This document shows, piece by piece, positions 20,627-30,203 of a stretch of 64,000 nt of DNA. A program made the position numbers and the translations under genes. How positions within the stretch are numbered: the stretch's first letter is position 1; each line of letters starts with the position of its first letter. Origin of the DNA: Actinomycetota bacterium (lineage in GTDB: Bacteria > Actinomycetota > CADDZG01 > JAHWKV01); assembly GCA_051005875.1 (NCBI GenBank), contig JBPCIX010000054.1:2825-66824 (forward strand), in the 5' to 3' direction. The notes below the pieces were generated by a model. The model saw only the letters and a list, made by a program, of their open reading frames with translations. It ran no database searches and was not told the DNA's origin.

Positions 20627-21907
20627 TTAGAGGAACCCGGTGCGCAGCCCCATGAGTGTCAGCTTTGCGGCCACTGCTAAGGCAATCGCCAGAGCCGCCC
20701 AGCCGGCAGGCATGATGCCGGGACCTAGACCTGAGCGACGAGGTAGCACCAAAACCGCCTCATAAATCGGGCCGCTCGCGGCCTGCCAGGGCCAGCGCAC
20801 CGAGAGTCCGCCGGGATCGGAGTTTGCGAGCCTAAGGCAAACCACTCCGGCTATCACCGCCCCGTATCCAAGCCAAAGCCATGCTGCCGGTTGGCCGCTT
20901 GCCACAGCGATGACAAGAGCGCAAGCAGCTGCAAGCCATGCTCCGGCCAAGGGTGGCAGCGCAGCTCGGGGCCGGTCGGCAAGCCGGCTTGCGGCCGCCG
21001 CCCACGTAGATGTGAATACGAGAGCCAGGGCCCCTGCGAACACCGGCGCAGCTATAGGGCCGAATGCAGGTGTAGTCAGATTGTAAAACCAATCTGCGAT
21101 GGGGCCGGGCAAGCGAAGCGACTGCGCTGAAGCGAAAACCTCGGTCCAGCCGGCCAGCGAAAGGGGGAGGATTGCAACCACCCAAATTGCGATAACTCTT
21201 TCGCCCAAGGCCATGGCAAGCCCGGCTAAGCCAATCGCCATTATTCCGGCAGAGGGAGCTCCGAGGGCAGCAGCGACGGCCATTGATCCGCCGGCAATTG
21301 AGAGTCCCGAGAGCCTCGACCGGAATAAGAATGCCGAAACAAGCCAAACCGCCGCTCCGCCCAATCCCAGTACAAGCGGAGCTGATGGGGCCACCCAAAA
21401 CGCAAGAACCGCGCCCTGCCACCAACCCACCGAAACCATCGCGCCGTCGATGGGAGCGTTGGAGCCTTCCTGGCGCCATAGCTTGGCGTCGCAGTCATTA
21501 GAGAAGGCCGGGGCGGCCAGGCGCAAGGACGCCGCCACGACCACAAGCCAGGCCGCCGGACCCCACGAACCCCTGGCAGGAACGTGCCAGGACAAGGCGT
21601 GAACCTGGTATGACCACATCCCCAAGGCAAGTGCAACATCAGAAAGGGCGAAGCACGCGAAGGCGGCAGGAGTCAACCTGCGAAACACTCCACCCACGCC
21701 GAGGATTAGCGTGATCGAAATGAATAGGACCAGGAAGGTAATAGGCGTTCCAAAAAATCCGATCGAAGTGGGGGAGGCCAAAGCAATAGCCACGCTCAGA
21801 ATTCCCAGAGTTGATATGCACGCCGCCCAAAAGCGACCAGACCCTCCGGCGTCGGCCCAGAAAACTACGCCCAGGGTGACGGCTAAACCGACCAGCAGCC
21901 AGGTCAT
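20627..21907 (-). CDS. hypothetical polytopic membrane protein (Ala/Gly/Leu/Trp-rich)
   Basis: The start MTWLLVGLAVTLG at 21907 forms an ATGA overlap with the stop of the upstream gene. About 12 hydrophobic segments and no recognisable motif. Confidence 0.5.
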   Translation of the reverse strand: MTWLLVGLAVTLGVVFWADAGGSGRFWAACISTLGILSVAIALASPTSIGFFGTPITFLVLFISITLILGVGGVFRRLTPAAFACFALSDVALALGMWSYQVHALSWHVPARGSWGPAAWLVVVAASLRLAAPAFSNDCDAKLWRQEGSNAPIDGAMVSVGWWQGAVLAFWVAPSAPLVLGLGGAAVWLVSAFLFRSRLSGLSIAGGSMAVAAALGAPSAGIMAIGLAGLAMALGERVIAIWVVAILPLSLAGWTEVFASAQSLRLPGPIADWFYNLTTPAFGPIAAPVFAGALALVFTSTWAAAASRLADRPRAALPPLAGAWLAAACALVIAVASGQPAAWLWLGYGAVIAGVVCLRLANSDPGGLSVRWPWQAASGPIYEAVLVLPRRSGLGPGIMPAGWAALAIALAVAAKLTLMGLRTGFL

Positions 21908-22770
21908 ACCGCCTGTGCCGCCGCCGCGATCGCAACCAGCCAGAGGAGCGCGCAAATCGCTAACGCCGGCCCCGGCCTGGCCCTTGCCGACCAGGCGTTG
22001 GTTTTGGAAACAGCCGCCACCACCACGCATGCGACGCCAAAGCTGGCGGACGCCTGCATCCCAACACTCAGAGCAAACGGTATTGCCACCAATGCGCCCA
22101 GAGCAGGCCCGGTGAGCACCCAGGACACCGCGGCCCCCGCTAGTGCGGACTCTGACCATCTAAGCATTGCGTCGGCCTTTCGGCTTGCGAAGCGCGGCGT
22201 CCGCGCCGACCAAAAAATAGCCGCAATGAGACCGCTTGCCGATGCGGCCGAAAGGCTGGCTGCGGCAGGAGTTCCGCCGGTGAGCACTAGGGGCCCCAAG
22301 ACCGTCTGCGCCGCTAAAATCTGGCGAAGACTCGAAGTGTTTAGCAGAATCGGCGGCATGAAAATACTCAAGGCCAAGACAGCGGTCCACAAATAAGGTG
22401 AATCGAGTTTGCCGAAATTTCGAATGGGACGAGGGGCTTGAGGGGCGTCGTCGGCGGGCGTATCAACGGGCCAGTTTTCTTCGGGCCGGATTTCACCCCC
22501 GGCCAACGACCTTCCGAGAATGCACGCCATGAGTGCGCCGGGGAGTATCAAGACGTTTCCCGGCACAAGCCCCAGGGCCGCCGGAATTCCGATAGCGATT
22601 CCAAAGGGCGCAAGAGCGACCACCGCGCGGCCCTGAGGCGCGGTCAACTCGAGGCGAGCCCCGGCTGGCTGCCACAAGTCTTTTCTGCGAGGCCATTCGC
22701 GCGACGTGCGGGCAGACACCAGAATCAAGAAAATGGTCCCAACAAAGCCGATTGGTACTGCCAAGAACAC
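21904..22770 (-). CDS. hypothetical polytopic membrane protein (Rv0048c-like position)
   Basis: 288 aa with multiple TM segments. Translationally coupled to the downstream membrane protein. Confidence 0.5.
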   Translation of the reverse strand: MFLAVPIGFVGTIFLILVSARTSREWPRRKDLWQPAGARLELTAPQGRAVVALAPFGIAIGIPAALGLVPGNVLILPGALMACILGRSLAGGEIRPEENWPVDTPADDAPQAPRPIRNFGKLDSPYLWTAVLALSIFMPPILLNTSSLRQILAAQTVLGPLVLTGGTPAAASLSAASASGLIAAIFWSARTPRFASRKADAMLRWSESALAGAAVSWVLTGPALGALVAIPFALSVGMQASASFGVACVVVAAVSKTNAWSARARPGPALAICALLWLVAIAAAAQAV

Positions 22771-23251: not shown

Positions 23252-23635
23252 TTGAAAATGAACGAGCCCAAAGTGCGCGTCTTGTTAGTTGACGATCAAC
23301 CTGCTGTTCGATCTGAGGTTTGTTTGGTCGTCGAAGCCACTGAAGGCTTCGAGGTTGTAGGTGAAGCCAGTTCAGGAGAAGAGGCCGTTGAGATGGCGGC
23401 TGACCTTAATCCCGACTTGATACTCATGGATGTCAACTTGCCGGGAATCAACGGTCTTGAGGCCACAAAACTGATTCTCACTCATTCAAAACTTCCGATT
23501 GTTCTTGTTCTTTCAACCTATGAAGCGCAGGATTACGAGCCCAAGGCCCTGGCTCAGGGCGCTTCGGGCTACATCTCAAAATACGAATTCAGCCCTGAGA
23601 CTCTCCTGGCTCGTTGGACTGCTGCCCGGACGTAG
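23252..23635 (+). CDS. stand-alone response-regulator receiver (CheY-like)
   Basis: 127 aa. Contains VLLVDDQ, LILMDVNLPGINGLE, VLST and a conserved Lys (SKYEF). No output domain. Confidence 0.8.
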   Translation: MKMNEPKVRVLLVDDQPAVRSEVCLVVEATEGFEVVGEASSGEEAVEMAADLNPDLILMDVNLPGINGLEATKLILTHSKLPIVLVLSTYEAQDYEPKALAQGASGYISKYEFSPETLLARWTAART

Positions 23636-24944
23636 CGCTTTCGCCGGGGGTAGCGGCAGGTATTAAGAAGGCCTTAACCGGGGTCTGCCTGCCTTTAACG
23701 GTGGCGGGTTCTAAGCTCTGAGCCTCGGGCTTGTGTGCCAGCGCGTTGTAAGTGGGCTCGCTCAGTACGGTGCCGCCACCCTCGGCCCATTGCTGAAGCC
23801 GTTGGGCCAAATTGACCGTATCGCCGACCAGCGTGTATTCAAGGCGCTCTTCGGAACCGAGAAGCGCCGCCGCCACCTGACCTGTTGACAGACCGATTCC
23901 CAGCATGAAAGACGGCAGCCCAGTCTCTGCCCAAACCCGGTTGACCTCGTCTTGCGCCCGGTGCATTCCAGCGGCGGCAGCCAGGGCCCTGTCGGCGTGG
24001 TGGAGCTGGGGAAAGGGGGCGCCGAACACCGCCATCACCGCGTCGCCGACGAATTGCATTACGGTCCCCCCCTCGGCCAGAACGACCTTCGTCATTTCGG
24101 CGCGGTGCTTGCTCAATTGGCCGGCAAGTTCTGACGGGTCGACAATCTCAGCGATGGCCGAGTACCCCCTTACGTCGGACATCAAAACTGTGACGTTCAA
24201 CATCTCGGTCTCGCCTATCCGCCGGCCCTGCGTTCGAAGTTTTTCGGCGATGCCGCCCGGCAACAAGCGCGACAGGTTTTCACCGATTTCTTCGCGCTCA
24301 ACTAAAGCTTGATGCAGGACCTTGAGCCCTTTAACCGCGCCCGATGCGCCGCCGGTAGCCCCTTGGGCTACTTTCATAAACAGATCTTCAATTCGGTTTG
24401 AAATGTCGGCGGGGGTTGTATTCCTCGATGCAGCGATCGCTTTAATTGATTTGCCCTCGGCAACCAAGCGAAGCAATTCTTCATCCGAGTCGCTCAGATC
24501 GCCCTTCGCCGTCACGGGAGCAACCAGGGCTTCAACAATCTTGGGGTCCAACATCGATCCGCCCGACGCTACTTCGCGCACGGCTCTTACCAGCTGGTCG
24601 CCTTCGGCCACCCGGTCTTTCAGCAAGTAGGCATAGCCCTGGGCACCCTCTTTCAGCAAAGCCGCCGCGTATTCCGGATCGTCATGCTGCGACAGAATCA
24701 CGACGCCGGTCCCTGGGTGTAGTTTGCGAATTTCCTTGGCCGCCTCAATACCTTCTTGTTGAAAAAACGGCGGCATCCTGATGTCGGTAACCAGTACCTG
24801 GGCCCCGGCTTTTCCAGCTTTGTCGATTAGTTCAGGGTAGTCGGCGGCTGTGCCCACCACTTCAAGGTCATCTTCCATCGACAGCAAAGCCCGCACGCCC
24901 TCGCGGACAATCAAATTATCGTCGGCCAAAAAGATGCTGATCAA
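23589..24944 (-). CDS. response regulator with REC + LuxR/GerE-type HTH + class III nucleotidyl cyclase domains
   Basis: The REC domain has FLADDN and VLVTDIRMPP. The HTH is LSDSDEELLRLVAEGKSIKAIAASRNTTPADISNRIEDLFMKV. The cyclase domain has VTVLMSDVRGYS, FVGDAVMAVFGAP and LVGDTVNLAQRL. The TTG start overlaps the kinase stop (TTGA). Confidence 0.85.
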   Translation of the reverse strand: MISIFLADDNLIVREGVRALLSMEDDLEVVGTAADYPELIDKAGKAGAQVLVTDIRMPPFFQQEGIEAAKEIRKLHPGTGVVILSQHDDPEYAAALLKEGAQGYAYLLKDRVAEGDQLVRAVREVASGGSMLDPKIVEALVAPVTAKGDLSDSDEELLRLVAEGKSIKAIAASRNTTPADISNRIEDLFMKVAQGATGGASGAVKGLKVLHQALVEREEIGENLSRLLPGGIAEKLRTQGRRIGETEMLNVTVLMSDVRGYSAIAEIVDPSELAGQLSKHRAEMTKVVLAEGGTVMQFVGDAVMAVFGAPFPQLHHADRALAAAAGMHRAQDEVNRVWAETGLPSFMLGIGLSTGQVAAALLGSEERLEYTLVGDTVNLAQRLQQWAEGGGTVLSEPTYNALAHKPEAQSLEPATVKGRQTPVKAFLIPAATPGESATSGQQSNEPGESQG

Positions 24945-27214
24945 GTTAGTCGCCCCCCGTAAACCCGGTCAAGGACCGCCCCCCTAGGCGACTCCGCAGC
25001 TTCTTCCACCGGGATTTCACCTGTCGTCGTTGTTCCCATTCCGGGTGAGGAAACCACACCGAGATGTCCCCCCAGGGCCTCGATTCGGTCCGACATATTT
25101 TGCAGTCCGGAACTCTTCTGAGCGGTCGATGTGTCGAACCCCCGGCCGTCGTCCGAAATGACAAAGCGCAACGTTTGGCCTTCGATGTGCAAGCTGATCG
25201 ACGCTCCTGTCGCACCGGCATGTTTTGAAATATTTTGCAAAGCCTCAAGGCAGCAAAAGTAAACGGCTGCTTCGACTTCTTGGGAAAAGCGCCTTGGTTC
25301 ATTCGAAGTTACTTCCACCGGAATCGCCAGCTTCCGGGCCTGTGCGTTCAGCGCAACCTCCAACCCTTCTGCCGCCAACAAAGGCGGGTATATTCCGCGG
25401 GCCAAGTCGCGCAACGTTTGCAATGCATCGTCGGTATCGGCCGCAATTTGATCGAGGAGGGCCTTGTAGTCCGGCGCGTGGTCTTGAGCCTTTCGGGCGG
25501 CCATGGCGACTCTCAGTTTAAGTGCGACGAGTTGCTGCTGGGCACCATCGTGAAGATTTCGCTCGATGCGCCTTCTTTCCTCGTCTTGAGCGGTAACGAG
25601 ACGCTGCCGGGACGCGCTCAGTTCCTCCAGTCGGTCCATCAGCTCCGCGTTCAGCCGCACGTTTGAAAGCACCAGCCCCGCCTGTGAGGCAAGGTCTTCG
25701 AGCAACTTTTCCTCCGGAAGGGTAAGGGATTCGCCTTCGGGTTTGGTCACAGTTAGCGCGCCCAGAAGTTCTCCCTTGTGCCGAACCGCTACGGCTCGGT
25801 CACTTCCTTGCATCTCGGGCAAGTGTTCAGTTTCGATAATGAGTTCCCCAACCTCGCTTAAGTCTTCAGCCGGCCAGCTTGCCTCGAGTCGAAGCGCATT
25901 GCCCACCCTCAGCCACACCTCAACCCTGGAGGCGGCGGTGCCTTCGGCAAGCACCCGAGCCATCCGGACAAGAAGGTCGTCGGACGCGAAGGACTCGACC
26001 ATTCTCTCGGAGAATCTCGACAGCACCTCGTAAGGGGTCGCTCGCTTTCCGAAAACCACCCGGTTGGCGAAACGCTCGAGCCGTTCTTTAGCAGGTTCAA
26101 ATGCGAACGCAATAAACGCTGTCGCAACAATTGATAAGAGCAGGTTGTCGGCGCGCTCGTTCAATAGCGTTCCGACTCCGGCAACGATCGCAACATACAC
26201 CGCGGTTACGAACGCTACGAGGGTCCCGTACAGCAGTGTTCGGCTGATTACCCGGTCGATATTCCACAGCCGGTATCGAAGGAGTCCCACAAATAGTGCG
26301 ATCGGAACCAAGGAAAACACCGGCTGAAAGACTCTGAAAACCACCACCGGCAGTTCATGCAGATCGCGCCCCTCCAACCCAGGCGATAGGAACGACCTGA
26401 TGCCCTGCGTCAAGACGAAAAGCCCGACCAAGAATGCGGGCAACAGGGCGAAAAACAGCAGGCGCGATTGCTGCCTCTGCTCGGGTGTGGGCGACTGACG
26501 GTAACGATAGGCCTGAGCAAGGACCGCCGCCGCCGGAGTTACGAGCCCGAAAAACAAGATGAGATCGATTGGTCCCGGCTGGCTTCCGGCGCGCCCGAAA
26601 GAGGCCCAGGCTACAGCGAGCATTAAGGGCCCGTACAGCAGAGTTTGGCCCCACCGCGGCCATCGGGGCACCAGCCTTCCATCGGGGAAAAGAATCAAGG
26701 CGGCAATGTAGGCGGTGCCTGTCACAAGCTGGTGCAACGAAAACAACAGGATCTCAACCGAAGTTTTAGGCATCACCTCATAGACGCTCACCGCCTGGAG
26801 GTTCAACAAGGCGGCCGTGCCTATCATTCCGGTGGCAAGCAAGCGGGCGGGTTTCTCGTCGCAGCGAAGCCTGAGTAAAAAGAAGGCCAGCACTAAGTTA
26901 AAGGCGCTAAAAAGGTAGTCGAGAGCAAGTTGGCTAAGGGACTGGACCTTATGCGATGCATCGGCCACTCCTTCGGCCACCCTGGCAACTAAACCTGTCC
27001 CGAAGGCGAGTTCGTGAAGGCTCTGGTGAAACGAGGGCGTAGACTTTGCAGCCGCGGCTGCCGCCCCCAGGGCCAAAATGCCGGCGGAAGCCCCCGCGAA
27101 TATGACTATGAGGCCCAGCACGACAAAGTCGGGCCGCGATCTGCGAGTTTTGGCCACGCCCTTAGAGACGACCTCGGCTTTCCGAATCACCGGGCCGCCA
27201 GGGGTACTGGCCAC
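24941..27214 (-). CDS. sensor histidine kinase (about 9-10 TM N-terminal module, GAF-like domain, HisKA_3 + HATPase)
   Basis: 757 aa. The H-box is ERRRIERNLHDGAQQQLVAL (NarX/DesK type). The ATPase region has CLEALQNISKHA, DDGRGF and GLQNMSDRIEALGG. Confidence 0.85.
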   Translation of the reverse strand: MASTPGGPVIRKAEVVSKGVAKTRRSRPDFVVLGLIVIFAGASAGILALGAAAAAAKSTPSFHQSLHELAFGTGLVARVAEGVADASHKVQSLSQLALDYLFSAFNLVLAFFLLRLRCDEKPARLLATGMIGTAALLNLQAVSVYEVMPKTSVEILLFSLHQLVTGTAYIAALILFPDGRLVPRWPRWGQTLLYGPLMLAVAWASFGRAGSQPGPIDLILFFGLVTPAAAVLAQAYRYRQSPTPEQRQQSRLLFFALLPAFLVGLFVLTQGIRSFLSPGLEGRDLHELPVVVFRVFQPVFSLVPIALFVGLLRYRLWNIDRVISRTLLYGTLVAFVTAVYVAIVAGVGTLLNERADNLLLSIVATAFIAFAFEPAKERLERFANRVVFGKRATPYEVLSRFSERMVESFASDDLLVRMARVLAEGTAASRVEVWLRVGNALRLEASWPAEDLSEVGELIIETEHLPEMQGSDRAVAVRHKGELLGALTVTKPEGESLTLPEEKLLEDLASQAGLVLSNVRLNAELMDRLEELSASRQRLVTAQDEERRRIERNLHDGAQQQLVALKLRVAMAARKAQDHAPDYKALLDQIAADTDDALQTLRDLARGIYPPLLAAEGLEVALNAQARKLAIPVEVTSNEPRRFSQEVEAAVYFCCLEALQNISKHAGATGASISLHIEGQTLRFVISDDGRGFDTSTAQKSSGLQNMSDRIEALGGHLGVVSSPGMGTTTTGEIPVEEAAESPRGAVLDRVYGGRLT

Positions 27215-27218
27215 GAAA

Positions 27219-28445
27219 TTACTTAACTACGATCGTCCCGACCATCGCCGGGTGGATCACGCACGCATAGTTATATTTTCCGGGTTTACCGATCCGCACT
27301 GAATAGGTTGCGTCGCCTTCGCCGTGGAAAAGACCAGATGAGAAGTACCCATTGCCGTCCCAGGTCCCTCCGTCGATCTCCAATGGTTTCGGCGGGGGTG
27401 CTCCCTCGGCCGGGGGCCCGTCGGGCTCTTCGGGCAATGGCGGAGAGCCTCCCGCCGGTTCCTCGATCTTGGGATTAATCGAAACTTGCCCATCGCGCTT
27501 AACCGAATAAATAGGGAAATAGGGAGGAACATCGAAGCTCACCGAATGTCTACCGTCAAAGGTCCAGGTGACCGTCTCGCCAACCTCAGCCTCAATTGCT
27601 TTTGGCAGGAAGGCGTTGGCGCCCCCAAAGACCACCTGCTCTCCCGGGTAGACCCCGGCAATATTCCCCGTTATGGTCCGGCCGTCCTTGTCCACCTTGC
27701 CCTTTGAATTGTACGTAGAGACCACACTTTTGATCGGCTTCATTTGCTTATCGATTAGCTCGATCGCCTGCCTGTTCACAACAGCTTGCGAGGGTATTGA
27801 GGCGCCCTTCGGCTTGACGGTAACTTTGCCGGACATCGCGGGCCCGTGCAGATTGCAATAGTAAAAATAGCTTCCCGGCTTCGTGTCGCCGGCGAACTTC
27901 ACTTTGAATTCGTTCTTGCCGACCCCTTCGTAGGGAATGAAGCCGCTATTGAAGAAGCTTTGGCGCCCGTTGAATTCGGGCTTCTTGGTCTTGGGGCAGG
28001 TCTGATCGGCTTCAGTCGGCGGATTTCCTGAGTTCAGATAACAAGGTTGAGCGGCATTTTGGGCGACCCCGCCTTGACCGAAGAAAAATGGAAGGGCTTT
28101 CATTTCCGGGCTTTCGTCAACTGCGGCGTATTCCTCTTCCTTTACTTCGTCGCCTTTGCGGAGCCGTTCGACCAAGGGGCTTGCCAGCGCCATCATTTTG
28201 TCGACCAACGTTCCCATGGTTACGGTATGGGCGTCGCCGGTCCAGTCCTGCTGGAAAGAAACCGTATCGCCCTGCCTGACGGTGAGGGCGCGGGGGAAGT
28301 ATTCGAAGATCGCGGTTGGGAACTCATCGTGGAGGTAGTCGACCCTTACCGTACGGGTCTGGGGGCCGCTTTCATTTGAAGAGCACGACGCCAACAGCAA
28401 AACCAGGATCGCCCCAACAGCAGTCTTGCGGTTCACGGAACGCAC
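27219..28445 (-). CDS. lipoprotein with two cupredoxin (type-1 blue copper) domains
   Basis: Signal peptide plus lipobox (LLLASC). Two ligand sets are present: DAHTV...YYCNLHGPAMSG and GRHSVSF...YACVIHPAMVG (His, Cys, His, Met). A 4-nt gap separates it from the kinase start. Confidence 0.72.
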   Translation of the reverse strand: MRSVNRKTAVGAILVLLLASCSSNESGPQTRTVRVDYLHDEFPTAIFEYFPRALTVRQGDTVSFQQDWTGDAHTVTMGTLVDKMMALASPLVERLRKGDEVKEEEYAAVDESPEMKALPFFFGQGGVAQNAAQPCYLNSGNPPTEADQTCPKTKKPEFNGRQSFFNSGFIPYEGVGKNEFKVKFAGDTKPGSYFYYCNLHGPAMSGKVTVKPKGASIPSQAVVNRQAIELIDKQMKPIKSVVSTYNSKGKVDKDGRTITGNIAGVYPGEQVVFGGANAFLPKAIEAEVGETVTWTFDGRHSVSFDVPPYFPIYSVKRDGQVSINPKIEEPAGGSPPLPEEPDGPPAEGAPPPKPLEIDGGTWDGNGYFSSGLFHGEGDATYSVRIGKPGKYNYACVIHPAMVGTIVVK

Positions 28446-28480
28446 TTGGTCACTCTACAAGAATCTTTTCGTTCAACGGT

Positions 28481-29476
28481 CTATTTTGCGGGATATTCCA
28501 GCTGGTGCCCGAGCGCAACCTCAGCCAGCGAATCGATTGCGACGCGATCGGGGGGCACGACCGCCACCTTGCAGGCTGTGAGGGCCCTGAGCGTCGAGGT
28601 GCGTGTGCCCTTTTCCAAAAGCGCTCTCTCGCCGACCAGAACCCCCGGTCCGAGCGAGGCCAGTACCTCGCCGTTGACCTCAACTTCGAGGACCCCGTCG
28701 AGTAACAGGAACATTTCTTTGCCTGCGCTGCCTTGCTCTACCAGGTTTGCGCCCTTGGACACCCTTCGTATTTCGGGGGCAGGCCCCGAGCTCATAATGG
28801 CGCTTGAGAGTTGGCGCTCCAATGCACTCTCGGCCTGAACAACGAAAGCGGCCGAATCCTGATCGCCCCACGGAGTGTTTTCGCCGAAAGCATCGTTCAT
28901 CCACGTCTTTAGATCAACCAGACCGGACTTGGCCGAGAGCCTTCCCGACGAATCGTAGATCCAATGGCGGGGAAAGCAGCTGTGCCCTAAAACCTCGTAG
29001 CTGGACTCGCCGTTGGCCTTGATTGTTAATGAAAGCGTGGTCCAGGCTAAAGGCGGGCTCAGTTGAAAGAAAGGCTTTCTCTGCACAGGCCGGGGGGCCG
29101 GCAGTCCGGTTTTGCCCCCTGCGGTTTGCGTGAATTTGACCCAGCCCTCACCTACGACCGGCGTCGGCTGTATGTCGGGCATCGGCACGGCCGGGACCGT
29201 CATTTGCCGGCTGCCCAGCTTGATGGTGGTCGCGCCGATGTGCCCCCTGCCAGCGTGCCCAAAGTTTGTGATTTTGCCGTCTTCAACCTCGACCCATGCG
29301 CGGAGCTCATTGGCGAAACGAAACCGGTCGGCCTGCCGCAGAGCCTCGATATCCTCCACAGCCTCGGGCGGGGGCTCGTCGTAATGAAGGGCCGTCCCGA
29401 ATGCATGCTTCGCCATCCCCTCAATCGACTCGGACGGAATCCAAGAAAGCGACGTGACCGACGATTCAATGCGCAA
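28481..29476 (-). CDS. cyclic-nucleotide-binding-domain protein with an uncharacterised N-terminal domain of about 230 aa
   Basis: The C-terminal CAP_ED-like region reads VSKGANLVEQGSAGKEMFLLLDGVLEVEVNGEVLASLGPGVLVGERALLEKGTRTSTLRA, with a phosphate-binding-cassette Arg. The N-terminal part has no motif I recognise. Confidence 0.78.
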   Translation of the reverse strand: MRIESSVTSLSWIPSESIEGMAKHAFGTALHYDEPPPEAVEDIEALRQADRFRFANELRAWVEVEDGKITNFGHAGRGHIGATTIKLGSRQMTVPAVPMPDIQPTPVVGEGWVKFTQTAGGKTGLPAPRPVQRKPFFQLSPPLAWTTLSLTIKANGESSYEVLGHSCFPRHWIYDSSGRLSAKSGLVDLKTWMNDAFGENTPWGDQDSAAFVVQAESALERQLSSAIMSSGPAPEIRRVSKGANLVEQGSAGKEMFLLLDGVLEVEVNGEVLASLGPGVLVGERALLEKGTRTSTLRALTACKVAVVPPDRVAIDSLAEVALGHQLEYPAK

Positions 29477-29579
29477 GAACGTTCCCCCCAGGGTCGGCGG
29501 ACTATGTTCGGCATTGTACTCGGTGATCGCTTGGAACGGAAGCTCCGGGCGTCCCTTTGCCCGATGCTTGACTTTGTGG

Positions 29580-29619
29580 CGATATAACGGTTAGATATAT
29601 CGGTGCGATATATCGGTGC
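29580..29619. promoter_or_regulatory. three phased AT-rich palindromes (CGATATATCG-like), including a 13-bp tandem direct repeat
   Basis: CGATATAACG at 29580, AGATATATCG at 29593 and CGATATATCG at 29606, a 13-bp phasing. GATATATCGGTGC is repeated in tandem at 29594..29619 and flanked by GGTTAGA at 29589 and 29623. They lie in the divergent region between the cNMP-protein gene and padR. Confidence 0.4.
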
Positions 29620-29651
29620 GATGGTTAGAGGCGTGAAACTGTGCTTAAACT

Positions 29652-30203
29652 GTGATTGAGATGGCCGTATTGGGGGTTCTCAAGGATCGCGCCATGCACG
29701 GCTACGAGCTGAAGAAAGAGCTGAGCGCCCAGTTGGGGCAGTTCTGGCAATTTTCTTACGGGAGCCTTTACCCCACAATCAAGCGTCTCGAAAAATCCGG
29801 CGCGGTCGAGCGTGTTTATGACAAGCAGAACGTCAAGAGACGCCTGAACATCTATCGCATCACCCCCGTAGGCGAAAAGCTGTTCGATGGAATGATCGCC
29901 GAGCACTCCGAAGTCGACGACGCCCGGTTCTCGATCAAGATGGCCTTTTTTCGCTACATGGAATCCAATGAGCGCGTGGAGCTTCTGGAGCGAAGGCGGG
30001 CCTACCTCACCGACAAACTCATAGATCTTCGAGCCAAGCTCAGGGCTTACAAAGAGCGACTCGACGCGTACACATATCGTCTGATGGAACATGGCGTTGA
30101 TACAACCAGCGCCGATCTTGAATGGGTAGACCGCCTAATCGCGGAAGAAAAGTCTGAAACTCCCGGCCCGGCGGGCACCGTGCCCGGTCCGGCCGGCGGC
30201 TAA
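29652..30203 (+). CDS. PadR-family transcriptional regulator
   Basis: MAVLGVLKDRAMHGYELKKEL...SYGSLYPTIKRLEKSGAV. The start is either the GTG at 29652 or the ATG at 29661. It lies upstream of ino1, as with mycobacterial Rv0047c-Rv0046c. Confidence 0.85.
   Translation: MIEMAVLGVLKDRAMHGYELKKELSAQLGQFWQFSYGSLYPTIKRLEKSGAVERVYDKQNVKRRLNIYRITPVGEKLFDGMIAEHSEVDDARFSIKMAFFRYMESNERVELLERRRAYLTDKLIDLRAKLRAYKERLDAYTYRLMEHGVDTTSADLEWVDRLIAEEKSETPGPAGTVPGPAGG

What the first reader, a model, noticed from the sequence alone, without database searches (positions are those of the whole stretch)
23252..29651. Sensor, writer and reader of a cyclic nucleotide in one operon: cNMP-binding protein, double blue-copper lipoprotein, multi-TM GAF kinase and REC-LuxR-cyclase, inserted in conserved synteny
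**Operon structure (seen in sequence).**
- Four minus-strand genes are packed with gaps of 35 nt, 4 nt and a TTGA overlap: 29476->28481, 28445->27219, 27214->24941 and 24944->23589. A single transcript is therefore likely.
- The response regulator ends in a class III nucleotidyl cyclase domain, so the two-component output is second-messenger synthesis.
- The first gene of the same operon carries a CAP-type cyclic-nucleotide-binding domain.
- The second gene encodes an extracytoplasmic lipoprotein with two type-1 copper sites, a plausible redox or copper input partner for the membrane kinase.

**Synteny (established knowledge).**
- The flanking genes DUF5318 and padR-ino1 are near neighbours in Mycobacterium (Rv0049 / Rv0047c-Rv0046c).
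- This roughly 6.4-kb block therefore looks like an accessory insertion in the origin-proximal backbone.

**Inference.** I know of no described system coupling a cupredoxin lipoprotein to a kinase-regulated cyclase with a dedicated cNMP receptor.
Basis: partly seen in the sequence, partly recalled or inferred. Interest (0 to 1): 0.78.

Follow-up and report, generated by a model that had tools for sequence, protein, structure and literature searches.

The report
Copper-protein sensor driving a cyclic-nucleotide circuit
This operon is a real but uncharacterised bacterial signalling circuit, in which a membrane kinase paired with a blue-copper lipoprotein appears to switch on a cyclic-nucleotide-making enzyme whose product is read by a dedicated binding protein; it is a local variant of a gene cluster found across the Actinomycetota.

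Summary
Four tightly packed minus-strand genes encode:
- a cyclic-nucleotide-binding (CNB) protein;
- a lipoprotein with two complete type-1 copper sites;
- a multi-TM HisKA_3 histidine kinase;
- a NarL-like response regulator fused to a class III cyclase.

A fifth gene, for a receiver-only protein that converges on the cyclase gene, was overlooked.

This is not a one-off insertion but a minority variant of a cluster conserved across the Actinomycetota.
- **Cyclase and CNB protein:** the cyclase regulator is about 60-70% identical across classes and has the same 330-aa CNB protein nearby in 48 of 57 genomes.
- **Lipoprotein and kinase:** in 44 of 51 metagenome loci the lipoprotein gene sits directly upstream of this kinase type.
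- **His loop:** 28 of 29 lipoprotein-paired kinases carry a three-histidine outer loop that all 48 unpaired relatives lack. This supports the lipoprotein as the kinase's co-sensor.
- **Cyclase residues:** all catalytic residues are present, but Gln replaces the base-specifying Lys, so the nucleotide is unresolved. The Lys-type sister clade has no CNB neighbour.
- **Effector domain:** the CNB protein's N-terminal domain has no known function.
- **Weak calls:** the LuxR and GAF assignments are sub-threshold.

I found no literature on the system. Function is inferred, not shown. It is a new variant of a known kind, of moderate to high interest.

The parts
28481..29476 (-). 331-aa cytoplasmic protein. 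It has an N-terminal beta-rich domain of unknown function (about residues 1-200) and a C-terminal cyclic-nucleotide-binding domain (237-311). It is the proposed reader.
   Evidence: - Pfam cNMP_binding scores 9.9e-15.
- The phosphate-binding cassette G282-E283-R284-A285...R292-T293 is invariant in 30 homologues.
- The TTG start is supported by homologue N-termini (MRIESSVTS) and a GGGGGG Shine-Dalgarno sequence.
- The AlphaFold model of the N-domain has pLDDT 77.5 and pTM 0.77. Its only significant fold match is 3c5p, a protein of unknown function.
- The N-domain family has 1135 representatives, mostly about 330 aa.
27219..28445 (-). 408-aa lipoprotein with two cupredoxin domains, each with a complete type-1 copper site. 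It is the proposed extracytoplasmic co-sensor of the kinase.
   Evidence: - The lipobox is LLASC, with C21 invariant.
- Site 1 ligands are H73, C197, H200 and M204. Position 204 is Met or Gln in homologues.
- Site 2 ligands are H300, C395, H398 and M401, all invariant in 27 sequences.
- Pfam Copper-bind is found on both halves.
- The gene lies directly upstream of an HK757-type kinase in 44 of 51 loci and in L086-L088.
24941..27214 (-). 757-aa sensor histidine kinase. It has about 8-10 TM helices, a GAF-like linker (sub-threshold), then HisKA_3 and HATPase_c. The first predicted outer loop (residues 58-94) carries H63, H67 and H88.
   Evidence: - Pfam HisKA_3 scores 1.5e-12 and HATPase_c 5.4e-8. 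GAF scores only 0.0085.
- The His triad is present in 28 of 29 cupredoxin-paired kinases and in 0 of 48 unpaired relatives of the same FPDGRL..RW family.
23589..24944 (-). 451-aa response regulator. It has a NarL-type receiver (D54), a degenerate LuxR-type HTH (about 150-195), a helical linker and a class III (IIIb-like) nucleotidyl cyclase (249-424). It is the proposed writer.
   Evidence: - Pfam Response_reg scores 1.7e-17 and Guanylate_cyc 5e-21.
- D9, D54, S85, K109, D257, D301, N378 and R382 are invariant in 81 homologues.
- Q297 is at the Lys/Glu position in 75 of 81, and T/S371 is at the Asp/Thr position.
- The N-terminal 194 aa are 42% identical to the cluster's NarL paralogue.
- It aligns with DesR, DevR, VraR, RcsB and NarL through residue about 192.
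- TTGA start/stop coupling with the kinase gene is read.
23252..23635 (+). 127-aa single-domain receiver protein that converges on the cyclase gene with a 47-nt 3' overlap. It is the proposed phosphate sink or competitor, or a connector.
   Evidence: - Pfam Response_reg scores 3.3e-25.
- It is 50% identical to the receiver-only protein of the conserved cluster.
- A receiver-only gene is present in 32 of 35 loci with at least 8 kb downstream of the cyclase gene.
- The same convergent arrangement is seen in L084.
29477..29651 (.). Divergent intergenic region between the CNB gene and padR. It is the probable promoter and operator region of the operon.
   Evidence: - Three copies of GCGATATAwCGGTkmGAT spaced 13 nt apart form overlapping palindromes at 29579-29622.
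- AAACTGTGmTT occurs twice at 29636-29657.
- No consensus sigma-70 match was found.
- The function of this region was not tested.

Best explanation
The block is a five-gene signalling module that turns an extracytoplasmic redox or copper signal into a cytoplasmic cyclic-nucleotide signal.

**Proposed steps**
1. The membrane-anchored lipoprotein with two type-1 copper centres reports its redox state or copper occupancy to the multi-TM HisKA_3 kinase. The contact is a His-rich outer loop (H63, H67, H88).
2. The kinase phosphorylates Asp54 of the NarL-like regulator.
3. Phosphorylation promotes dimerisation through the receiver and vestigial-HTH region, which brings two class III cyclase domains together and switches on synthesis of a 3',5'-cyclic nucleotide.
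4. The nucleotide binds the C-terminal CNB domain of the 331-aa protein and controls that protein's uncharacterised N-terminal domain.
5. The receiver-only protein competes for phosphoryl groups and sets the gain.

**Shown:** the gene order, the domain content, the integrity of catalytic, phospho-acceptor, copper-ligand and phosphate-binding residues, and the conserved pairings.

**Inferred:** the signal, the direction of regulation, the identity of the nucleotide (Gln replaces the usual Lys) and the final output.
For: **Operon packing**
- The genes are separated by 35 nt, 4 nt and a TTGA overlap, with no terminator-like site in the junctions.

**Intact functional residues**
- The phospho-acceptor and catalytic residues of the regulator-cyclase are invariant in 81 homologues.
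- The copper ligands are invariant in both cupredoxin domains.
- The CNB phosphate-binding cassette is invariant.

**Writer-reader pairing**
- The CNB protein is present in 48 of 57 Gln-type cyclase loci and in 0 of 5 Lys-type loci.
- The pairing is also seen when anchoring on the CNB protein (L170).

**Sensor pairing**
- The order lipoprotein->kinase holds in 44 of 51 loci and in L086-L088.
- Tandem lipoprotein copies precede the kinase in 13 loci.
- The His-triad loop is present in 28 of 29 paired kinases and in 0 of 48 unpaired ones.

**Kinase-regulator match**
- A HisKA_3 kinase is paired with a NarL-type receiver.
- Kinase and regulator-cyclase are adjacent in several arrangements: the window, L084, L086, L126 and L143.
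Against: - No experiment exists for any member. I found nothing in the searchable literature.
- Most cupredoxin-kinase pairs lie without the cyclase (RRcyc in 11 of 79 loci). Most cyclase clusters lack the cupredoxin (1 of 59). The two modules are therefore separable and their coupling here is inferred from adjacency.
- The lipoprotein could be a regulated electron carrier rather than a sensor.
- Some CNB-protein genes stand alone (L172; L087).
- The window lacks the MBL-fold hydrolase, the ABC transporter and the NarL regulator of the canonical cluster, so the local circuit may be incomplete or may rely on genes elsewhere.
- The HTH might still bind DNA, which would give a second output.
Confidence: 0.6

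Rival explanations
1. The cupredoxin lipoprotein is an ordinary extracytoplasmic electron carrier, or a copper-handling protein, whose expression is merely co-regulated with the two-component system. It is not a sensor. The kinase senses something else through its TM domain.
For: - Cupredoxins are classically electron carriers.
- Some homologues occur without a kinase (L168, L099, L152) or next to other cupredoxins (L086 and L169).
- The kinase TM family (FPDGRL..RW) works without any cupredoxin in 48 of 77 cases.
Against: - The order lipoprotein->kinase holds in 86% of loci, whichever regulator follows.
- A three-His outer loop is found only in paired kinases (28 of 29 against 0 of 48).
- Other homologues sit beside a different signalling module, SpoIIE-STAS.
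- No respiratory or copper-export genes are consistently adjacent.
Confidence: 0.2
2. The regulator is mainly a DNA-binding NarL-type transcription factor. Its cyclase domain is a dimerisation or regulatory module with little catalytic role. The neighbouring CNB protein responds to cAMP made by other cyclases.
For: - The N-terminal 194 residues are 42% identical to a bona fide NarL paralogue.
- They align with NarL-family structures through the recognition helix.
- The substrate-specifying Lys is missing.
Against: - Both metal-binding Asp residues, the transition-state Asn and the Arg are invariant in 81 homologues.
- The cyclase domain is the best-conserved part of the protein.
- GerE is below the Pfam threshold, and the recognition helix (TTPADISNRIEDLF) is acidic where NarL relatives carry Lys, His or Arg.
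- The CNB protein co-occurs specifically with the Gln-type cyclase.
Confidence: 0.1
3. The cyclase plus CNB-domain protein is a Pycsar-like anti-phage system. On this reading a pyrimidine cyclase makes cCMP or cUMP, which activates a toxic effector.
For: - PADLOC PycC models hit the cyclase domain (2.1e-22, 77.7 bits), and PycTIR and effector models hit the CNB domain (about 38-40 bits).
- A PycTIR CNB structure is among the fold and sequence matches.
- The base-specifying residue is non-canonical.
Against: - The hits are at domain level only. The generic Pfam cyclase model scores about the same (75.6 bits), and the cyanobacterial Cya2 and CyaB score higher (104 and 95 bits).
- No TIR or TM effector domain is present.
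- The genes are about 60-70% identical across classes and embedded in a two-component cluster in housekeeping surroundings, unlike patchy defence islands.
Confidence: 0.04

Closest known systems
Response-regulator-controlled class III adenylyl cyclases (Spirulina and Anabaena CyaC, myxobacterial Cya proteins, Dictyostelium ACR)
   Same: A receiver domain sits upstream of a class III cyclase, so a phosphorelay controls cNMP synthesis. The closest solved cyclase domains are the class IIIb enzymes Cya2, P. aeruginosa CyaB and CyaC. ACR is described in PMC3009899.
   Different: - Here the regulator is a complete NarL-type REC plus LuxR-like HTH fused to the cyclase.
- The kinase is a separate HisKA_3 protein.
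- The adenine-specifying Lys is replaced by Gln.
- A dedicated CNB protein is encoded alongside.

I found no description of this three-domain architecture.
M. tuberculosis Rv0386 (class III cyclase with a LuxR-type HTH; a Gln-Asn substrate pair; recalled from Castro et al. 2005, not verified with the tools)
   Same: It is an actinobacterial class III cyclase combined with a LuxR-type HTH. Gln sits at the position of the substrate-specifying Lys. Rv0386 is reported to make cAMP with guanylyl cyclase side activity.
   Different: - Rv0386 has the order cyclase-ATPase-HTH and no receiver.
- Its second specificity residue is Asn rather than Thr/Ser.
- It has no adjacent CNB protein.
- Homology beyond the domain level was not tested.
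Three-component systems with an extracytoplasmic accessory protein: HbpS-SenS-SenR of Streptomyces (PMC4991794), LpqB-MtrB and QseG-QseE (PMC6075780)
   Same: A secreted or lipid-anchored protein is encoded next to a membrane kinase and modulates it. HbpS is a redox-sensing metalloprotein, which is the closest functional analogy.
   Different: - The accessory protein here is a double type-1 copper cupredoxin, not a haem protein or a beta-propeller.
- The kinase has about 8-10 TM helices with a His-triad loop.
- No sequence relationship to these systems is implied.
- I found no cupredoxin-kinase pair in the literature.
CRP/CAP and PKA/PKG-type cyclic-nucleotide-binding domains
   Same: The CNB beta-barrel and phosphate-binding cassette (G-E-x-A ... 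R-T) are conserved. The best solved matches are PKG, PKA-R and HCN CNB domains.
   Different: - There is no HTH or kinase effector.
- The CNB domain is C-terminal to a roughly 200-aa beta-rich domain. That domain's only structural relative is the uncharacterised BAS0735 (3c5p; E 3.8e-5, TM 0.45-0.5).
Pycsar (PycC cyclase plus a CNB-domain effector)
   Same: A class III-like cyclase is encoded next to a protein that carries a CNB domain. PADLOC gives domain-level matches.
   Different: - There is no TIR or TM killing domain.
- The cyclase is under two-component control.
- The genes are conserved and lie in core-genome-like surroundings.

Membership tests
Two-component system, HisKA_3 kinase / NarL-type regulator class | Kinase with a HisKA_3 H-box and an HATPase_c catalytic domain | tested here: met
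   HisKA_3 scores 1.5e-12 (48.3 bits against 24) and HATPase_c 5.4e-8 (33.7 against 26.4). The H-box NLHDGAQQQL is read in the translation.
Two-component system, HisKA_3 kinase / NarL-type regulator class | Receiver with a phospho-acceptor Asp, an acidic pair, a Ser/Thr and a Lys | tested here: met
   D9, D54, S85 and K109 are present in 80-81 of 81 homologues. Response_reg scores 1.7e-17.
Two-component system, HisKA_3 kinase / NarL-type regulator class | Phosphotransfer from this kinase to this regulator | not testable with these tools
   This is inferred from the TTGA start/stop overlap and from matching kinase and receiver classes.
LuxR/GerE-type HTH output domain | Match to the GerE model above threshold, with a basic recognition helix | tested here: inconclusive
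   - GerE scores E 0.027, 14.5 bits against a cut-off of 23.5.
- NarL-family models and structures align through residue about 192.
- The region is 42% identical to a NarL paralogue.
- The recognition helix lacks the usual basic residues.
Class III nucleotidyl cyclase (class IIIb adenylyl cyclases) | Two metal-binding Asp residues, a transition-state Asn and an Arg | tested here: met
   D257, D301, N378 and R382 are invariant in 81 sequences. They align with Cya2, CyaB and CyaC.
Class III nucleotidyl cyclase (class IIIb adenylyl cyclases) | Adenine-specifying Lys paired with Thr (class IIIb), or Glu for guanylyl cyclases | tested here: not met
   - Q297 aligns with the Lys of CyaC and CyaB and with the Glu of Cya2. 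It is Gln in 75 of 81 sequences.
- The second position is Thr or Ser, as in class IIIb.
- The enzyme class is met, but the substrate cannot be assigned.
Cyclic-nucleotide-binding domain (CAP/PKA family) | Beta-barrel with a phosphate-binding cassette, G-E-x-A ... R-[ST] | tested here: met
   cNMP_binding scores 9.9e-15 (54.7 bits against 27.5). G282, E283, R284, A285, R292 and T293 are invariant.
CRP/FNR transcription factors | C-terminal HTH DNA-binding domain after the CNB domain | tested here: not met
   The CNB domain is at the C-terminus. CRP models match only the CNB part, far below their cut-offs. No HTH was detected.
Type-1 (blue) copper cupredoxins | His, Cys, His and an axial Met or Gln ligand set within a cupredoxin fold | tested here: met
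   The sets H73/C197/H200/M204 and H300/C395/H398/M401 are present, and the His and Cys ligands are invariant in 27 homologues. Copper-bind is found on both halves. Copper binding itself was not tested.
Bacterial lipoproteins | Signal peptide ending in a lipobox with an invariant Cys | tested here: met
   The N-terminus is MRSVNRKTAVGAILVLLLAS-C21, and this Cys is invariant in the family alignment.
GAF domain in the kinase linker | Match to a GAF model above threshold | tested here: inconclusive
   GAF scores E 0.0085, 17.1 bits against 22.4, over 42 residues only. Faint GAF hits recur in homologues.
Pycsar anti-phage system | PycC cyclase plus an effector with a CNB domain fused to a TIR or TM killing domain, with patchy defence-island distribution | tested here: not met
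   Only domain-level PADLOC hits were found. No TIR or TM domain is present. The genes are conserved across classes in a two-component cluster.

The most novel reading that the evidence does not exclude
Actinomycetota carry a phylum-wide, so far undescribed second-messenger circuit with three unusual parts.
- A Gln-type REC-HTH-cyclase makes a nucleotide other than plain cAMP, for example cGMP or a mixed or other cNMP.
- A co-evolved CNB protein reads that nucleotide through a new effector domain.
- In a subset of genomes that includes this window, the input is an extracytoplasmic double blue-copper lipoprotein that docks on a His-triad loop of the kinase.

That input would be the first cupredoxin used as a signalling sensor for a histidine kinase.
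Probability: 0.3. Interest if true: 0.8.

Novelty: new variant of a known kind. Interest (0 to 1): 0.6.

Why it matters
- **A testable, widespread pathway.** Cyclic-nucleotide signalling in Actinomycetota is known mainly from mycobacteria, corynebacteria and streptomycetes. This cluster is conserved at about 60-70% identity from Acidimicrobiia and Nitriliruptoria to Nocardioidaceae and Streptosporangiaceae. Cultured carriers include Microbispora corallina, Planotetraspora thailandica and Spongisporangium articulatum. Yet it has no described function.
- **A possible specificity switch.** A Lys-to-Gln change at the base-specifying position coincides with the presence of a dedicated receptor. This points to a change of nucleotide specificity that a single enzyme assay could resolve.
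- **A new kind of kinase input.** The cupredoxin-kinase pair, with its co-evolving His-rich loop, would make extracellular redox state or copper a new input for histidine kinases.
- **A new effector domain.** The N-terminal domain of the CNB protein would be a new cyclic-nucleotide-controlled effector.

Tried and rejected
- **MctS/MctR.** These are the best NCBIfam names for the kinase and regulator. They refer to a rhizobial monocarboxylate-transport system (PMC9100948). The hits are far below cut-off and cover the kinase core only, so there is no copper link.
- **Pycsar membership.** Only domain-level PADLOC hits were found.
The full-length model matched only CNB domains. The domain-only model matched only 3c5p, a protein of unknown function. 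No function could be assigned. Pfam gave only a chance-level DUF7251 hit.
- **An MBL-fold 'eraser'.** The hydrolase next to the CNB gene in other genomes is only remotely similar to RNase Z, and it is absent from the window. A phosphodiesterase role is speculation.
- **Promoter and terminator scan.** Counts equal those of shuffled controls, so the scan is uninformative.
- **Exact-sequence look-up of the DUF5318 protein.** This was meant to find relatives lacking the block. The protein is not on record.
- **Comparison with M. tuberculosis gene order.** It rests on memory plus PMC3899939 for the ino1-Rv0047c operon.
- **Literature.** Five searches on REC-cyclase, CNB and cupredoxin-kinase combinations found no description. 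Subscription-only papers are not covered.
- **Composition.** GC content and skew give no sign that the block is foreign.

Full report
**1. Observation**

| Coordinates | Length | Product |
|---|---|---|
| 29476->28481 | 331 aa | CNB protein |
| 28445->27219 | 408 aa | cupredoxin lipoprotein |
| 27214->24941 | 757 aa | histidine kinase |
| 24944->23589 | 451 aa | regulator-cyclase |

- The junctions read as stated. There is a 35-nt gap, then 'aag taa tttc GTG' (a 4-nt gap), then 'act TGA' overlapping the TTG start.
- Pfam confirms cNMP_binding, Copper-bind/Cupredoxin_1, HisKA_3 plus HATPase_c, and Response_reg plus Guanylate_cyc, all above curated thresholds.
- The N-terminal half of the lipoprotein alone also passes Copper-bind.
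- Two domain labels are weaker than written. GAF scores 17.1 bits against a cut-off of 22.4, and GerE scores 14.5 bits against 23.5.
- The regulator is nonetheless a full NarL-type protein in front of the cyclase. NarL-family models and the structures of DesR, DevR, VraR, RcsB and NarL align through residue about 192.
- The flanks are DUF5318 on one side and PadR plus Ino1 on the other.
It encodes a 127-aa receiver-only protein on the plus strand (23252-23635) and converges on the cyclase gene with a 47-nt overlap.
- Promoter-like and terminator-like matches are at the level of shuffled sequence, and none lies in the junctions.

**2. The regulator-cyclase belongs to a large, strongly conserved family**

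- A search of the protein collection returned thousands of hits. The best 120 all carry REC plus cyclase and are 67-72% identical to the window protein, apart from the protein itself and one relative at 88%.
- A scan of one genome per species found 586 stretches encoding relatives. They come from Acidimicrobiia, Nitriliruptorales, Nocardioidaceae, Streptosporangiaceae, Kineosporiales-like Spongisporangium and Dormibacteria.
- Cultured carriers include Microbispora corallina and Planotetraspora thailandica.
- In 81 full-length homologues the receiver residues D9, D54, S85 and K109 are essentially invariant. So are the cyclase residues D257, D301, N378 and R382. The enzyme therefore looks active.

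**3. Substrate specificity is not canonical**

- Alignment with solved class III cyclases puts Q297 at the position of the adenine-specifying Lys of CyaC and P. aeruginosa CyaB. The same position holds the guanine-specifying Glu of Cya2.
- T371 falls at the Thr of class IIIb enzymes.
- Gln is present in 75 of 81 homologues. The six with Lys form a separate clade at about 46% identity.
- From memory, M. tuberculosis Rv0386 also has Gln at this position and makes cAMP with some cGMP. I could not verify this with the tools.
- The product of the window enzyme is therefore unresolved.

**4. Writer and reader are a conserved pair**

- I mapped the neighbours of the cyclase gene in 65 species-representative loci.
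- The 330-aa CNB protein, including its N-terminal domain, is present in 48 of 57 Gln-type loci that have enough upstream sequence. It is usually transcribed divergently from the cyclase gene.
- It is present in 0 of 5 Lys-type loci.
- Anchoring on the CNB protein instead recovers the cyclase next door in L170 but not in L172.
- The phosphate-binding cassette (G282, E283, R284, A285, R292, T293) is invariant. The closest solved relatives are the CNB domains of PKG, PKA-R and HCN.

The N-terminal roughly 200 residues are as conserved as the CNB domain.
- They model confidently as a beta-rich domain (pLDDT 77.5, pTM 0.77).
- The only match among solved structures is BAS0735 (3c5p), whose function is unknown.
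- This domain has 1135 representatives at 50% clustering, mostly in proteins of about 330 aa.

**5. The canonical cluster is larger than the window's version**

The typical order is: MBL-fold hydrolase <- CNB protein <- | -> regulator-cyclase -> ABC ATPase plus FtsX permeases -> one to three HisKA_3 kinases, followed by <- receiver-only <- NarL regulator.

Counts for each component:

| Component | Loci with it | Loci assessed |
|---|---|---|
| MBL-fold hydrolase | 39 | 54, with at least 2.5 kb upstream of the cyclase gene |
| ABC ATPase | 24 | 35, with at least 8 kb downstream |
| Kinase | 34 | 35, with at least 8 kb downstream |
| Receiver-only gene | 32 | 35, with at least 8 kb downstream |
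| NarL regulator | 33 | 35, with at least 8 kb downstream |

- The window has no homologue of the hydrolase, the ABC ATPase or the NarL regulator. The NarL query instead hits the cyclase regulator itself at 42% identity.
- The window keeps the receiver-only gene.

**6. The cupredoxin lipoprotein and the kinase are a conserved sensory pair**

- The lipoprotein family is small (332 hits) and confined to Actinomycetota metagenome bins.
- Its lipobox Cys, both sets of type-1 copper ligands and a probable disulfide pair (C135, C150) are invariant.
- Among 79 metagenome loci anchored on the lipoprotein, 51 have at least 800 nt downstream. In 44 of these an HK757-type kinase follows immediately on the same strand, with homology that extends into its TM domain.
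- Three further genome contexts show the same order.
- Tandem arrays of two to four lipoprotein genes before the kinase occur in 13 loci.
- Exceptions include a SpoIIE-STAS context and stand-alone copies.

The strongest evidence for functional coupling is a co-evolving loop.
- 77 multi-TM kinases of the same family share the FPDGRL..RW motif.
- Of the 29 directly preceded by the lipoprotein gene, 28 carry H63, H67 and H88 in the first loop after TM1.
- None of the 48 unpaired kinases has this segment at all.
- The N-terminus before TM1 is rich in Lys and Arg. By the positive-inside rule the loop should therefore face outward, where the lipoprotein is. This topology is an inference.

**7. How the two modules combine**

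- The cyclase gene lies beside the cupredoxin-kinase pair in 11 of 79 lipoprotein-anchored loci.
- Conversely, the cupredoxin lies near the cyclase in only 1 of 59 species-representative cyclase loci (L037).
- The arrangements differ between genomes:
  - window and L084: CNB -> lipoprotein -> kinase -> cyclase;
  - L086, L092 and L101: cyclase -> lipoprotein -> kinase;
  - L126 and L143: lipoprotein -> kinase -> cyclase;
  - L037: divergent.
- The same components recurring in different orders argues for selection on their association. The window's form is a minority variant.

**8. Genomic setting**

- The window backbone reads DnaB, GT87, class A PBP, membrane ORFs, DUF5318, [block], PadR, Ino1 and the CCA-adding enzyme.
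- From memory this is the order of the M. tuberculosis Rv0046c-Rv0058 region. The ino1-Rv0047c operon is documented in PMC3899939.
- Its GC content (0.55-0.61) is not distinct from the flanks.
- The relative L084, whose cyclase is 88% identical, has the block at the same DUF5318-PBP-GT87 flank. On its other side, L084 has a NarL regulator and a small GerE protein instead of PadR-Ino1.
- This looks like a lineage-specific placement with later rearrangement, not a recent acquisition.

**9. Mechanism proposed**

The proposed sequence of events is:
1. The redox state or copper occupancy of the lipoprotein is sensed by the kinase through the His loop.
2. The kinase phosphorylates D54 of the regulator.
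3. Receiver-driven dimerisation activates the cyclase.
4. The cNMP binds the CNB protein.
5. The N-domain of the CNB protein gives an unknown output.
6. The receiver-only protein acts as a phosphate sink.

Gene order, residue integrity and the conserved pairings are shown. Every biochemical step is inferred. The recognition helix of the HTH (TTPADISNRIEDLF) is acidic where relatives are basic. I therefore expect it to serve dimerisation rather than DNA binding, with low certainty.

**10. Rivals**

- **The lipoprotein is a co-regulated electron carrier.** This is weakened by the loop co-evolution.
- **The regulator is mainly a transcription factor with an inactive cyclase.** This is weakened by the invariant catalytic residues.
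- **The pair is a Pycsar-like defence system.** This is weakened because the PADLOC hits are at domain level only, there is no killing domain, and conservation looks core-genome-like.

**11. Novelty**

- Regulator-controlled class III cyclases, CNB receptors and accessory proteins of kinases are all known kinds.
- Four features are not described in any paper I could search:
  - the NarL-HTH-cyclase architecture with Gln at the specificity position;
  - its dedicated CNB partner with a new N-domain;
  - the phylum-wide cluster around them;
  - the cupredoxin-kinase pair with its His-triad loop.
- I rate it a new variant of a known kind. It is of moderate to high interest because it is widespread, it occurs in cultured strains, and it can be tested directly.

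Noticed in passing
window 29579-29657 (intergenic, between the CNB gene and padR): Three copies of GCGATATAwCGGTkmGAT spaced 13 nt apart form overlapping palindromes. AAACTGTGmTT also occurs twice, overlapping the padR start. These are candidate operator sites for PadR or for a regulator of the operon.
   Followed up: partly
window 23589-23635; L084 7834-7874: The cyclase-regulator gene and the receiver-only gene converge and overlap at their 3' ends by 47 nt here and by 41 nt in L084. In L003 the cyclase gene and a kinase gene overlap convergently by about 58 nt. The significance of these overlaps is unknown.
   Followed up: no
L063-L069 (genome-contig loci): A sister clade of REC-HTH-cyclases, at about 46% identity, keeps the canonical Lys at the specificity position. 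It has a NarL gene directly upstream but no CNB-protein neighbour.
   Followed up: partly
L001 7990-8820 and equivalents in 39 of 54 loci: An MBL-fold (Lactamase_B_2) gene follows the CNB-protein gene in most genomes. It is only remotely similar to RNase Z. It could be the phosphodiesterase of the circuit, and it is absent from the window.
   Followed up: partly
L096, L099, L108, L111, L147 and others: Tandem arrays of two to four paralogous double-cupredoxin lipoprotein genes occur, often just before the kinase gene.
   Followed up: no
L169 2191-8962: Two double-cupredoxin lipoprotein genes are followed by a single cupredoxin, an unknown protein, a GAF-SpoIIE-HATPase_c_2 protein and two STAS proteins. 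The same lipoprotein family may therefore feed a partner-switching module.
   Followed up: no
L086 5712-6473: A further single-domain cupredoxin (253 aa) sits between the CNB gene and the cyclase gene. Rieske, DUF2269-cupredoxin and Usp-Rieske genes lie nearby, giving the locus a redox-related neighbourhood.
   Followed up: no
window 20627-22770: Two long, overlapping minus-strand ORFs (510 aa and 288 aa) lie between DUF5318 and the class A PBP. They are Ala/Gly/Leu-rich, membrane-like and have no Pfam match. L084 has a 464-aa gene without a Pfam match at the same place. The true gene boundaries are unclear.
   Followed up: no
window 28481-29476: The public annotation of this gene (P0121, 311 aa) starts 20 codons downstream of the TTG start. 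Homologues of 330 aa and a GGGGGG Shine-Dalgarno sequence support the longer form.
   Followed up: yes
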